In this document: piece after piece, positions 135-20,530 of the stretch | Layout: every line of letters begins with the position of its first letter | How positions within the stretch are numbered: position 1 is the stretch's first letter | DNA from: Promethearchaeota archaeon | Lineage (GTDB): Archaea; Asgardarchaeota; Lokiarchaeia; Sigyniarchaeales; SOKP01 | Direction: 5' to 3' | Length of the DNA: 64,000 nt | Assembly (NCBI GenBank): GCA_048939995.1 | Contig: JBHLOY010000010.1 | Coordinates: 81,887 to 145,886 of the forward strand | Position numbers and translations under genes: made by a program | The notes under the pieces: generated by a model | The model's input: the letters and a program-made list of their open reading frames with translations, nothing else | Told to the model about the DNA's origin: nothing | Databases searched by the model: none

Positions 135-215
135 AAAGTAAATTTAAAAGAAAGAATGCTTTTTATTAAGCATATTAAAGCTAATTAATGTTTTTATCTT
201 AACGAGTCAAAATCG

Positions 216-2305
216 GTGATTAATTTAAGCAAAGCTCATAAACATAAGTGGATCATTACTAGTGCTTGGCCTTATGTGAACGCAAATATTTCTTGAGAGC
301 TTTAAGAATTAGCGTACTTCCACATCTAGGCAACTTAATAGGAAGCACATTATCAGCAGATGTATTTGCTCGCTTTCTACGAATGAAGGGAGATGAAGTA
401 TTATTTGTATCTGGTTCAGATATGCATGGAACTCCCGTAGCAGTGGAAGCTAAAAAAACAGGTGTTTCAGTAGAAGAATTAGCTATAAAAAATCACAATA
501 AAATTAAGGAATTGCATAAAAAATGGAAAATTTCATTTGATAATTACACTCAAACGCATAATCCTACACATATCGAATTTGTGCAGAAATTTTATTTAGA
601 TATCCAAAAAAACGGATATATCTTAGAAAAAGATATAGAATCCCTTTATTGTGAAAAAGATAACCTTTTTCTTCCTGATAGGTTTGTAGAGGGGATTTGC
701 CCTCACTGTGGAGCTGAGAAAGCGAGAGGGGATCAATGTGACAATTGCCAGAAGTTATTGACACCTCTCGAGCTTAAAGAATCGTACTGTTCGATATGTG
801 GCGCAAAACCTATACTTCGAAAAACTAAACATTGGTATATGGATTTTCCTAGGCTTCAAAATCAATTGAAGAAATTAATTGAAAAAAATGAAATTATCCC
901 TCAAAATGCTCGGCAAATGTGCTTAAACAGTATCGAGGAAGGTCTTCCTGAAAGAGCCATTACGCGAGATTTAGAATGGGGTATTCCCGCACCGTTTAAA
1001 GGAGCTGAAGGAAAAACGATATATGTATGGTTTGAGGCTGTGTTAGGTTATGTTAGTGCTTGTTTAGAATGGGCTGACAAGCTAAAAAATCAACCAAAAA
1101 AATTTGATTACTTTTGGAAAGATAAAAATACCAAATCGGTTTATTTTATAGGGAAGGATAATATCATCTTCCATTTAATTGTGTTTCCAGGACTCCTAAT
1201 GGCATATAATGCCGATAAAAAGGATTCTGATAAATTAGTTCTTCCATATAACGTCTCTTCTACAGAATGGTTAATGCATGAAAATGAGAAATTTTCAAAA
1301 TCTAGAGGAATAGGGATTTGGATTGATGAGGCGTTAGACCTGGCACCATTGGATTATTGGAGATTCAATTTAGTTTATAATCGTCCGGAATCAAGTGATA
1401 CCTCATTTTTATGGTCTGAATTTGAAAATAACATTAAGACTTTAAATGATAACATAGGAAATTTCATTCATAGGACATTAACCTTTATTGATAAACAATT
1501 CAATAAGATCATTCCAGAGAAAGTTGAATATGACAAAGTAGATAAGATTTTTGTTGAAAAAATCAATAGAATAGGCGTTGATGTCGGAAAAAGCTTAGAT
1601 AATTTTAGTTTACGTAAGGCAATACGAGATGTTGTGAGTTTTGGAAAAGAAGGAAATGTTTATTTAAACGAAAAGGCACCATGGCATTTAATAAAGAAAG
1701 ATAAAAAAAAAGCGGGACATGTATTTAATATATGCGCTCAAGCGGTATATGCTTTGGCAGTTCTTTTAAGCCCATTTACTCCTGGGACAGCAAACAAAAT
1801 TATTTCATTTTTGAATGATCCTAAATTATCCGAATCATCTTGGGATAGTATTAATGAAAATGCTGTCAGTGCAGGAGTTAAAATTAAAAGTCCAGAGCCA
1901 ATTTTTCAAAAATTAGATATTGAAGAAATAAAGAATAATTTAAATAAAATCAGAGAAGAAAAGCAAAAGGGAGGAAAAATTGAATTGATATCTTATGATT
2001 ATTTTAAAAAGTTGGATATTAGAGTCGCAAAAATAGAATCTATTGAGAAGGTACCTAAAGCAGATAAACTATATAAATTAGGAATCGATATTGGGAATGA
2101 GAAAAGGACACTCGTAGCAGGTTTAGCGGAACACTATAAAATAGATGAGCTAATTAATAAAAAAATTATAGTGCTAACAAACTTAGAGCCAAGAAAATTA
2201 CGAGGAATTCAAAGTGAAGGAATGCTGCTTGCTGCTGTGGATAATGAAAAGGTATCTATTTTAATACCAGACAAAGAAATTGAGATCGGGGCAAAAGTAG
2301 AATAA
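216..2305 (+). CDS. metG: Methionine--tRNA ligase, intron-containing: join(216..285,318..2305), 685 aa, with C-terminal tRNA-binding OB domain
   Basis: Exon 1 from GTG 216 gives ...KWIITSAWPYVNA; exon 2 gives PHLGN (HIGH), GSDMHG, Zn-knuckle CxxC motifs, YVWFEA, GKDN, KFSKS (KMSKS) and a Trbp-like C-terminus (LDIRVAKI...SEGMLL). The ORF-track start at 266 is an artefact of the intron. Confidence 0.95.
286..317 (+). other. Predicted 32-nt archaeal bulge-helix-bulge (BHB) intron in metG mRNA
   Basis: Central helix ACGC(280-283)/GCGT(312-315); 3-nt bulges AAA(284-286) and ACT(316-318); inner stem TATTTCTTGAG/TTTAAGAATTA; outer exon stem ATGTGA/TC(C)ACAT. Cutting after the 2nd nt of each bulge gives in-frame GCA-ATT-CCA-CAT. 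Confidence 0.88.
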
Positions 2306-2307
2306 AT

Positions 2308-3552
2308 CTATAATTTTAAAGAAAATACTGGATTTAAGCGGGCTATAACTTCTCCTAGATCTAGTTGTAGCATTTTTAAGATTACGTCTCTTCCTCGATA
2401 TTCAAATTGTAATTCTTTAACATTCTTAATTATTTTTAATTTATTACGATCTTTTACTAACTCACACACAAAATATCTCTGGTCATTGTATTCCAATATT
2501 TTTTTCACATTTTGAATATCTGGCAAATTATAGCCTCCTCCATGTGCTAAAATATCTACATTTCTCAATAATTCCAATAATTCCAATTTTACCGCTCTTT
2601 TTAAAAAATTATTATTTTTTAAGGTTATCTCTGAAAGATTTTTCTGTCCCATAAATAGATAACAAGCCATATCTGCTCTAAGAGCGGTAGGAAAAACATT
2701 GGAGGTGATATACTTACAATTGAGATCAGTACAATTACTCCCTAAATACATATTATTATAATCTTTTAAAAACTGGTGTGGTTGATTGCAAATTATTTGA
2801 AAATCATTACCAAATAGATGATTTGCAATGAGTAATCTTTTTCTGCTTGAAAAATTCAGAGCTTTTTTATTAAAATCTAAGTACTCATCAGCCTCAGAAT
2901 CAATAAGGATATATTGTTTTCCAAAAATGGTATTCTCTTCTAATGCATGTTCTTTTAATGTTTTAGATTGATCAATATACAAACCAATTCCATGTTTATC
3001 ATCTCTGAATTCTGGAGCAGAACCATGTATAAAAAAAGTATATGGTGGAAAATCAATATCAGTTAGATTTTTAGTTTTAAAACAATTAATGAAATGGTTT
3101 GAGATCCCATAGTCCCAATTAATTAGAATGTCTTTATAATATAATTCTGTGGATTTTATTTCATCAATCTTCTTAATAAGATCATAGGGGTCTGGTAGTT
3201 CATATAATCCTCCACATAATATACCACAACAATTAGGTTTTATATTTAGAAAAATTAATTTTTCATTTCCAGATCCCCAATTTAATCTACCGCCATATCC
3301 GAGACCAGAATTCCATCTGAAATTATTTTTTGATATTGTTTCATCTGGAGAGGAGATAAATGCTGCTTTAGGTTCAAACCCATATTTTTCTTGAATAAGT
3401 TGAAATTGAGCAAGTCCATACTTCATATTAGCTCTACATAGTTTTGAAGCGCCATCATTTAAACCAGTTGAAAAAATAAACTTTTCTGCTCTACTTAGTA
3501 ACTCAACTTTATCCATTTGAGATAAATTCTCAGAAATACTAGAGGTCGCCAT
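2308..3552 (-). CDS. Divergent RtcB-family RNA ligase
   Basis: RtcB motifs in order: SPD, NCCG, SNHF, IHGS, EYL..ALNF..KR, PHQ, AHGGG, EYR..V..VIARLNPV..LK. Confidence 0.75.
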   Translation of the reverse strand: MATSSISENLSQMDKVELLSRAEKFIFSTGLNDGASKLCRANMKYGLAQFQLIQEKYGFEPKAAFISSPDETISKNNFRWNSGLGYGGRLNWGSGNEKLIFLNIKPNCCGILCGGLYELPDPYDLIKKIDEIKSTELYYKDILINWDYGISNHFINCFKTKNLTDIDFPPYTFFIHGSAPEFRDDKHGIGLYIDQSKTLKEHALEENTIFGKQYILIDSEADEYLDFNKKALNFSSRKRLLIANHLFGNDFQIICNQPHQFLKDYNNMYLGSNCTDLNCKYITSNVFPTALRADMACYLFMGQKNLSEITLKNNNFLKRAVKLELLELLRNVDILAHGGGYNLPDIQNVKKILEYNDQRYFVCELVKDRNKLKIIKNVKELQFEYRGRDVILKMLQLDLGEVIARLNPVFSLKL

Positions 3553-20068: not shown

Positions 20069-20530
20069 CTATTCTTTATAAATATAACCTTCTTTAACTT
20101 TTAAGTTAAGTCCAAGAGATTTTAATTTCTTTCCATGAGTATAAAATATTTTTTTAATTGATTTTATTGGAACATCAAAATGATCTGCTAAATCAGTAAT
20201 ACTTACTGATTCAACCATTTCAAAAAATGTTGGTAATTCCTCGATAATATCTTTTTCGATTTGTTTGAGAGTTTTATCATAAGATAAACTGGCAGTCTCT
20301 AGAATTAGTTCCTGAGTAATTTCTTTAAAATCAACACCGTAGTTTTCCTTAAGGATATCTGGATTTGATTCAATCCATTGATGAACAATATTGTTTATTG
20401 ATTTTGATAATGAAATGTTTCGATTCTCTGCCATTTTATTTATAACTTTATAATCGAATTCATCTAATTTGACACTGATCCTTGGAGTTTTTTGTTCTAT
20501 CTCTTCTTGATCTTTATTTTCAGAAGGCAT
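20069..20530 (-). CDS. Ribbon-helix-helix plus C-terminal HTH DNA-binding protein (ATG 20530 preferred over 20614)
   Basis: RISVKL..DYKVINKMAENRNISLSKSINNIV (RHH); SITDLADHFDVPIKSIKK (HTH); TATA TTTATAAA at 20576-20583 lies within the longer ORF call. Confidence 0.65.
   Translation of the reverse strand: MPSENKDQEEIEQKTPRISVKLDEFDYKVINKMAENRNISLSKSINNIVHQWIESNPDILKENYGVDFKEITQELILETASLSYDKTLKQIEKDIIEELPTFFEMVESVSITDLADHFDVPIKSIKKIFYTHGKKLKSLGLNLKVKEGYIYKE

What the first reader, a model, noticed from the sequence alone, without database searches (positions are those of the whole stretch)
216..330. BHB intron interrupting metG mRNA just before the HIGH motif
Seen: the conserved MetRS N-terminus (KWIITSAWPYVNA, from GTG 216) is out of frame with PHLGN and hits TGA at 294-296 after 26 codons. 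The intervening sequence folds into a BHB: 4-bp helix ACGC/GCGT, two 3-nt bulges on opposite strands (AAA, ACT), an 11-position inner stem with one mismatch, and an exon-exon outer stem. Established: archaeal EndA cuts after the 2nd nucleotide of each bulge. Applying that rule with no adjustment removes 286..317 (32 nt) and gives VNA-I-PHLGN, the usual spacing, and a 685-aa protein. BHB introns are normal in archaeal tRNA and rRNA, but in mRNA are known mainly from crenarchaeal cbf5. Inference: an essential aminoacyl-tRNA synthetase in an Asgard archaeon depends on tRNA-type splicing, and gene callers mis-start the gene at 266 and hide this.
Basis: partly seen in the sequence, partly recalled or inferred. 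Interest (0 to 1): 0.95.

Follow-up and report, generated by a model that had tools for sequence, protein, structure and literature searches.

The report
tRNA-type intron splits Asgard metG gene
The only gene for the enzyme that loads methionine onto tRNA in this Asgard archaeon is broken by a 32-base insert shaped like the introns archaea cut out of tRNAs, so its messenger RNA very probably has to be spliced, which in the papers I could search is shown inside a coding sequence for only one archaeal gene (cbf5).

Summary
Observation confirmed. Removing 286-317 by the standard BHB rule rebuilds a 685-aa MetRS (WPYVNAIPHLG), the four-residue spacing of 108/108 intact homologues. It is the only metG found in a 98%-complete Lokiarchaeia-type (Promethearchaeota) genome, which also encodes two EndA subunits and RtcB.
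It is not an assembly error or pseudogene. The insert recurs in independent assemblies and across one clade (dS about 0.8-1.4, dN 0.04-0.10). Synonymous sites at the junction are frozen (0/8 variable versus 138/209). An unrelated 31-nt insert sits one base downstream in a second lineage, and the same rule restores its frame.
I verified five more such inserts in this genome (EF-1alpha, fwdA, purA, mvk, rpl11).
Limits: no spliced RNA or protein was found. Congeners keep only 3 of 4 central-helix pairs, the metG alignment has no two-sided compensatory change, and the motif alone is unspecific genome-wide. The neighbouring RtcB-like gene also flanks intron-less metG, so a dedicated XBP1-like switch is unsupported.
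This scan has reported the same phenomenon in other Asgard genomes (unchecked AI notes); my literature searches found no report. Verdict: EndA/RtcB-spliced mRNA intron, about 0.92; new variant of the cbf5 kind.

The parts
216..285 (+). metG exon 1 (23 codons plus the first base of the Ile codon); encodes the first Rossmann-fold strand and the AWPY motif before HIGH
   Evidence: homologues and solved MetRS structures carry this segment; start codon inferred
286..317 (+). 32-nt BHB-type intron; shifts the frame and contains the stop TGA 294-296
   Evidence: absent from 26 intron-less alleles, present at the same length in 6 distinct alleles of one clade
318..2305 (+). metG exon 2 (HIGH-equivalent PHLGN to stop)
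   Evidence: Pfam tRNA-synt_1g matched from profile position 14 onward, plus Anticodon_3 and tRNA_bind; purifying selection
280..283 (+). 5' strand of the BHB central helix (exon, ACGC)
   Evidence: pairs 4/4 with 312-315
312..315 (+). 3' strand of the BHB central helix (intron, GCGU)
   Evidence: 3/4 pairs in G019 and G010
284..286 (+). 5' bulge AAA; predicted cut 285/286
   Evidence: cut rule from PMC2738675
316..318 (+). 3' bulge ACU; predicted cut 317/318
287..311 (+). intron hairpin (inner stem 287-297 with 301-311)
   Evidence: 95% of cells paired over 6 alleles; changes fall mostly in the loop or are G-U type
274..279 (+). 5' arm of the exon-exon outer stem
   Evidence: 5/5 Watson-Crick pairs with 321-325 in 8 of 9 intron-bearing alleles and 0 of 26 intron-less alleles
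319..325 (+). 3' arm of the exon-exon outer stem
266..2305 (+). mis-called 679-aa ORF from TTG 266, with a spurious N-terminus; not the inferred product
   Evidence: P0121; this frame has a stop at the intron's 5' end in a conspecific allele and in congeners
2308..3552 (-). convergent neighbour, 414 aa, at most a distant RtcB-like protein; adjacency to metG does not depend on the intron
   Evidence: no Pfam hit; Atlas third-ranked cluster has RtcB in 13% of members; BLAST to the genome's RtcB E=0.10; also next to intron-less metG in G032 and G008

Best explanation
286-317 is a short tRNA-type (BHB) intron in the pre-mRNA of the sole metG found. Shown in sequence: exon and intron can fold into a 4-bp helix flanked by two 3-nt bulges, with an intron hairpin inside and an exon-exon stem outside. 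Inferred from established EndA chemistry: the two-subunit EndA cuts at 285/286 and 317/318, and RtcB joins the exons to give a 685-aa MetRS. Unspliced mRNA gives a 26-aa peptide. The intron was probably gained once in a small clade; an unrelated 31-nt intron occupies the neighbouring phosphodiester bond in another lineage. It persists because it sits beside the HIGH motif, where only exact loss is tolerated. It is one member of a scattered set of micro-introns in Lokiarchaeia protein genes. It is most likely a tolerated, near-neutral passenger of permissive tRNA splicing rather than a dedicated regulatory switch (this last step is inference).
For: Single metG in a 98%-complete genome. Invariant 4-residue spacing in 108/108 intact homologues. 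EndA subunit with Tyr/His/Lys motifs, a His-less partner subunit, and RtcB; Asgard two-subunit EndA carries the L1 loop linked to relaxed motifs (PMC5829648). Same 32-nt length kept across alleles with dS 0.8-1.4 and dN 0.04-0.10. Junction codons show 0/8 synonymous variation versus 138/209 distally (Fisher p=2.4e-4; kin are not independent), and the exon-exon stem is 5/5 in 8/9 intron-bearing versus 0/26 intron-less alleles. A motif-free pattern scan found an unrelated 31-nt insert in three other MAGs with a 4/4 helix; the same rule gives VNAIPH, and an AU test rejects one clade for the two sets (p=0.0004). In a motif-free census of about 500 loci, the only two convincing broken genes (fwdA, metG) both had a 4/4 BHB. 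EF-1alpha (33 nt), purA (30), mvk (31) and rpl11 (37) fit the rule. The mvk intron shows a two-sided exon-intron change (C-G to U-A in G010). rpl11 keeps the same boundaries at 37 and 38 nt and has a second site of 28/29 nt in relatives.
Against: No spliced transcript or full-length spliced protein from this clade was found. In G019 and G010 the central helix has one mismatch (A.A or C.A), and the metG alignment has no two-sided compensatory pair; the shuffle control there is uninformative. The BHB motif is common by chance: a genome-wide motif-plus-ORF scan showed no excess of frame-restoring lengths over offset controls. Only two independent origins underlie the exon-stem contrast.
Confidence: 0.92

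Rival explanations
1. Translational recoding: the ribosome frameshifts or hops over the insert, and the RNA is never cut.
For: A hairpin and an early stop follow the 5' segment, as at recoding sites. Known cbf5 introns were once confused with frameshifting (PMC2738675).
Against: No slippery heptamer in any clade-A allele. The 32-nt and 31-nt inserts would need opposite shifts at the same site. A shift would add about 11 residues where 108/108 homologues allow none. rpl11 inserts of 37 and 38 nt share boundaries but differ in phase.
Confidence: 0.03
2. Downstream initiation at TTG 266 or TTG 293 gives a truncated but working MetRS, with or without a separately made exon-1 peptide.
For: In this allele the exon-2 frame is open from 266, and databases call it so.
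Against: That frame has a stop at the intron's 5' end in a conspecific allele and in congeners, and G010, L088 and L034 have no ATG/GTG/TTG in it. The product would lack the first Rossmann strand and the PY motif seen in solved MetRS structures. Exon 1 stays conserved.
Confidence: 0.02
3. Pseudogene or assembly artefact, with the working metG missing from the bin.
For: The genome is a MAG (98% complete, 5% contamination).
Against: An identical insert occurs in a separate NCBI MAG and a Logan assembly, and a two-base variant in another Logan assembly. dN/dS is below 0.15 in exon 2 across species. Each of the three intron-bearing species shows one metG with this query.
Confidence: 0.01
4. Spliced as above, but as a dedicated regulatory switch (XBP1/HAC1-like) run by the neighbouring RtcB-like gene. 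This concerns function and is compatible with splicing.
For: The intron shifts the frame and gates an essential enzyme; a possibly RtcB-like gene lies 2 bp from the metG stop.
Against: The neighbour is equally adjacent to intron-less metG. A canonical RtcB lies elsewhere. Only 3 of 42 genomes of the genus matched the intron pattern. Similar introns are scattered over unrelated genes and come and go between species.
Confidence: 0.1

Closest known systems
cbf5 pre-mRNA intron of Desulfurococcales and Sulfolobales (Watanabe 2002; Yokobori 2009, PMC2738675)
   Same: Short intron (21-38 nt among the cbf5 rows I read) in a coding sequence at a catalytic motif; often relaxed BHB; cut between the second and third bulge bases by a hetero-oligomeric EndA; patchy among relatives; causes mis-annotation.
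   Different: Different gene (an aminoacyl-tRNA synthetase, not an RNA-modifying enzyme) and lineage (Asgard). Two unrelated introns at adjacent bonds rather than one ancestral gain. One of many such genes per genome, while cbf5 of this genome and three relatives showed no insert. No cDNA proof here.
BHB intron in the 5' UTR of Haloferax HVO_1309 mRNA (PMC7714728)
   Same: mRNA substrate of the tRNA-splicing endonuclease.
   Different: It lies in the untranslated leader and does not break a reading frame.
Non-canonical BHB tRNA introns of Asgard archaea (PMC11291895; bioRxiv 10.64898/2026.10.13.758758)
   Same: Same motif, repeated independent gains, two-subunit EndA as a permissive background. 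ARAGORN marks introns in 13 of the 20 tRNA genes it finds in this genome.
   Different: Those studies treat tRNA genes; the preprint's main text does not contain the word mRNA.
IRE1/RtcB splicing of XBP1 and HAC1 mRNA in eukaryotes (own knowledge; named in PMC13149111)
   Same: Protein nuclease plus tRNA-type ligase removes a short structured intron; in XBP1 this shifts the frame.
   Different: Different nuclease and motif, stress-regulated; no evidence of regulation here.

Membership tests
Archaeal BHB (EndA/RtcB-spliced) introns | 4-bp central helix between the 5' exon end and the 3' intron end | tested here: met
   4/4 in this genome and its conspecific allele and in all three lineage-B alleles; 3/4 (relaxed) in G019 and G010
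Archaeal BHB (EndA/RtcB-spliced) introns | Two 3-nt bulges on opposite strands with flanking helices | tested here: met
   AAA 284-286 and ACU 316-318; inner 9/10 pairs, outer 2 pairs plus a 5-bp exon stem
Archaeal BHB (EndA/RtcB-spliced) introns | Cutting after bulge base 2 on each strand regenerates the uninterrupted host sequence | tested here: met
   Gives VNAI or VNAV plus PHLG in all 9 distinct alleles of two unrelated introns
Archaeal BHB (EndA/RtcB-spliced) introns | Host encodes EndA with the Tyr/His/Lys triad and an RtcB ligase | tested here: met
   L031 carries the three motifs, L032 lacks the His (structural subunit), L033 is RtcB
Archaeal BHB (EndA/RtcB-spliced) introns | Structure conserved by covariation | tested here: inconclusive
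   metG: 94.9% of cells paired versus 28-38% when slid, but 0 two-sided changes; one two-sided change in the mvk intron
Archaeal BHB (EndA/RtcB-spliced) introns | Spliced RNA exists in vivo and EndA cleaves the substrate | not testable with these tools
   No RNA reads available; protein searches found no spliced product of this clade
cbf5 intron family (orthologous intron) | Located in cbf5 at the catalytic Asp codon | tested here: not met
   Host gene is metG; no insert detected in cbf5 of G000, G019, G010 or G021
Group I/II self-splicing introns or catalogued Rfam RNAs | Ribozyme core or match to a curated family | tested here: not met
   Only 32 nt; no Rfam match at E<=1 in 1-1000
Programmed -1 ribosomal frameshift site | Slippery heptamer conserved upstream of a stimulatory structure | tested here: not met
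   None in clade A; one in a single lineage-B allele

The most novel reading that the evidence does not exclude
Lokiarchaeia routinely splice protein-coding mRNAs with their tRNA-splicing enzymes. Tens-of-bases BHB introns repeatedly invade the catalytic motifs of core genes (MetRS, EF-1alpha, uL11, PurA, Mvk, FwdA), sometimes twice per gene or twice at one site. The closest prokaryotic relatives of eukaryotes would then have a genome-wide, actively spreading mRNA intron system that standard annotation hides.
Probability: 0.85. Interest if true: 0.88.

Novelty: new variant of a known kind. Interest (0 to 1): 0.8.

Why it matters
Papers I could search confirm coding-sequence splicing in archaea only for cbf5, plus one 5' UTR case (PMC7714728, PMC2738675); eight searches found no Asgard mRNA intron, though most subscription papers are not searched. 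If true, translation itself (MetRS, EF-1alpha, uL11) depends on mRNA splicing in an Asgard lineage. That bears on where intron-split protein genes and IRE1/RtcB-type splicing came from. Two unrelated introns one base apart, with intron-less sister lineages, give a clean system for the open question of how BHB introns arrive. In practice, public Asgard protein sets contain truncated or mis-started core genes (P0001, P0002, P0004-P0006, P0010, P0121), which affects phylogenomics and metabolic reconstruction.

Tried and rejected
Genome-wide ab initio BHB plus ORF scan: 386,159 raw motifs, and frame-restoring lengths no commoner than +1/+2 offsets, so it gives no support and cannot count introns; it did yield the EF-1alpha lead. 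Search for a spliced product among full-length and short proteins: none from this clade, which is uninformative without RNA assemblies. One search was wasted on wrong coordinates; some searches were input slips. Pattern hits L037, L040 and L041 are chance matches. The covariation shuffle on metG is uninformative. The promoter scan models sigma-70 and is irrelevant. No Rfam match. The XBP1-like module with the neighbouring gene was rejected on synteny. The first rpl11 comparison picked wrong query frames and was redone. The dnaG, PurM-like, phosphatase and CoA-transferase introns noted by other readers were not tested.

Full report
Observation. The reading frame from GTG 216 encodes the MetRS N-terminus up to AWPYVNA and stops at TGA 294-296; PHLGN and the rest of the enzyme lie in another frame. 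The junction can form a bulge-helix-bulge: helix 280-283/312-315, bulges 284-286 and 316-318, an inner stem with one mismatch, and an outer exon-exon stem. Cutting after the second base of each bulge, the rule documented for cbf5 (PMC2738675), removes 286-317 and gives a 685-aa protein with WPYVNAIPHLG. All 108 intact homologues have exactly four residues between WPY and PHLG, and VNAI is the second commonest. Shuffled inserts reach this quality of motif in 0.08% of trials, a looser motif in 16%.

Genome context. tblastn finds no second metG in the 3.75-Mb, 98%-complete genome. It encodes two EndA proteins, one with the Tyr/His/Lys motifs and one lacking the His, and a canonical RtcB. This is the two-subunit architecture reported for Asgard archaea, with a loop linked to relaxed substrates (PMC5829648; bioRxiv 10.64898/2026.10.13.758758). 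I did not check that loop in this enzyme. Close homologues come mostly from records titled Promethearchaeota.

Not an artefact, not a pseudogene. The identical insert is present in a separate NCBI MAG and a Logan assembly, and a two-base variant in another Logan assembly; one of those changes closes the U.U mismatch. A 32-nt insert of diverged sequence is at the same position in G019, G010 and three further assemblies. These form one clade (100/99) whose sister group has no insert; 3 of 42 genomes of the genus matched the insert pattern. Exon 2 is under purifying selection, with dS about 0.8-1.4 and dN 0.04-0.10 between species. The eight synonymous-capable codons around the junction show no synonymous variation, against 138 of 209 further downstream. 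That is what an RNA structure built partly from exon bases predicts, although five related sequences are not independent.

A second intron at the same site. A pattern scan that made no structural assumption found an unrelated 31-nt insert in three other MAGs. Its helix UGCG/CGCA pairs 4/4 in a register one base downstream, and the same rule yields VNAIPH. The two sets of alleles are not one clade (AU test p=0.0004; two changes on the tree). Given their unrelated sequences, two independent gains are the simplest reading, though the tree cannot itself tell gain from loss. The exon-exon stem AUGUG/CACAU is perfect in 8 of 9 intron-bearing alleles from both lineages and in none of 26 intron-less alleles.

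What weakens the case. In G019 and G010 the central helix has only three of four pairs, and the six-allele alignment has one-sided but no two-sided changes. Relaxed motifs are the norm for cbf5 introns, so this is compatible with splicing but is not support. The motif is unspecific on its own: a genome-wide scan found no excess of frame-restoring motifs over offset controls. No spliced product was found in protein collections, and I had no RNA data.

Wider system. A motif-free spliced alignment of relatives' ORFs against about 500 loci of this genome returned two convincing broken genes, fwdA (30 nt) and metG; both have a 4/4 helix at the exact insert length. Following one lead of my own and leads from other readers, I confirmed against intron-less orthologues: EF-1alpha (33 nt in the P-loop, this genome only of five), purA (30 nt, four of five), mvk (31 nt, four of five, with a C-G to U-A exon-intron change in G010) and rpl11 (37 nt here, 38 nt in G010, same boundaries). 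A second rpl11 site (28 nt in G008, 29 nt in G010) turned up from a frame break and also has a 4/4 helix. The chance of 4/4 at one placement is 0.024 in this genome. Only fwdA, the second metG intron and the second rpl11 site were found without reference to the motif. Two of about 500 loci suggests on the order of ten to twenty such genes per genome, a rough figure from two counts.

Rivals. Frameshifting or hopping fails on the lack of slippery sites, the opposite phases of the 31- and 32-nt inserts, and the invariant spacing. Downstream initiation fails because three alleles have no in-frame start and the product would lack the first Rossmann strand. A dedicated XBP1-like switch with the convergent neighbour is unsupported: that gene is at best a distant RtcB relative and flanks intron-less metG as well.

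Comparison with what is known. It works like the cbf5 intron and meets every BHB-intron feature testable from DNA, but it is not the cbf5 intron: no insert was detected in cbf5 here. A 2020 paper counts cbf5 and one Haloferax 5' UTR as the mRNA cases (PMC7714728); the 2009 cbf5 paper notes that introns in other genes had been predicted but not confirmed. Asgard intron papers cover tRNA genes. Searches for Asgard mRNA introns returned nothing relevant, within a library that lacks most subscription papers. This scan has already filed the same phenomenon for other genes in other Asgard genomes, one note claiming spliced RNA assemblies for cdhA; those are AI notes that I did not check and do not count as evidence.

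Verdict. A real 32-nt insert, very probably an EndA/RtcB-spliced mRNA intron (0.92), in an essential synthetase. New variant of a known kind; interest 0.8.

Noticed in passing
L101 (G000:C11, minus strand, near 167345): EF-1alpha P-loop GHIDHGKS is interrupted by a 33-nt stop-containing insert with a 4/4 helix and 8/8 inner pairs; absent in G019, G010, G021 and G008.
   Followed up: yes
L034, L035, L038: Unrelated 31-nt BHB intron one base downstream of the window's intron site in metG of another lineage; weaker outer closure.
   Followed up: yes
L114, L113, L112 (rpl11 of G000, G010, G008): Two intron sites in rpl11: G000 has site 1 (37 nt), G008 site 2 (28 nt), G010 both (38 and 29 nt).
   Followed up: yes
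L107-L110 and L121-L124: purA 30-nt and mvk 31-nt BHB inserts shared by G000, G019, G010 and G021 but not G008; mvk shows a two-sided exon-intron change.
   Followed up: yes
G000:C17 minus strand near 377452: fwdA carries a 30-nt stop-containing insert with a perfect BHB, found without using the motif.
   Followed up: yes
G000:C23 minus near 175447 and G000:C7 plus near 20329: Two further 30-nt BHB candidates in long ORFs (junction peptides GFHVTRAA and VRGHPQLT) from the ab initio list; not checked against orthologues.
   Followed up: no
window 2308-3552 (-): 414-aa protein without a Pfam hit, conserved at 73-88% identity in the five congeners searched and usually tail-to-tail with metG; possibly a very divergent RtcB-fold protein of unknown substrate.
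   Followed up: partly
window 215-227: GGTGA overlaps the GTG start and could be a ribosome-binding site; intron-less relatives have ATG or Leu three codons later, where this clade has TTA. The true start codon is not settled.
   Followed up: no
G000 genome-wide: ARAGORN finds only 20 tRNA genes in a 98%-complete genome, 13 with introns, suggesting further tRNA genes hidden by multiple introns.
   Followed up: no
G022:C224:2089-2520 and G006:C171:6689-7120: A paralogous class I synthetase match has an internal TAA in two congeners; possibly another intron or a broken gene.
   Followed up: no
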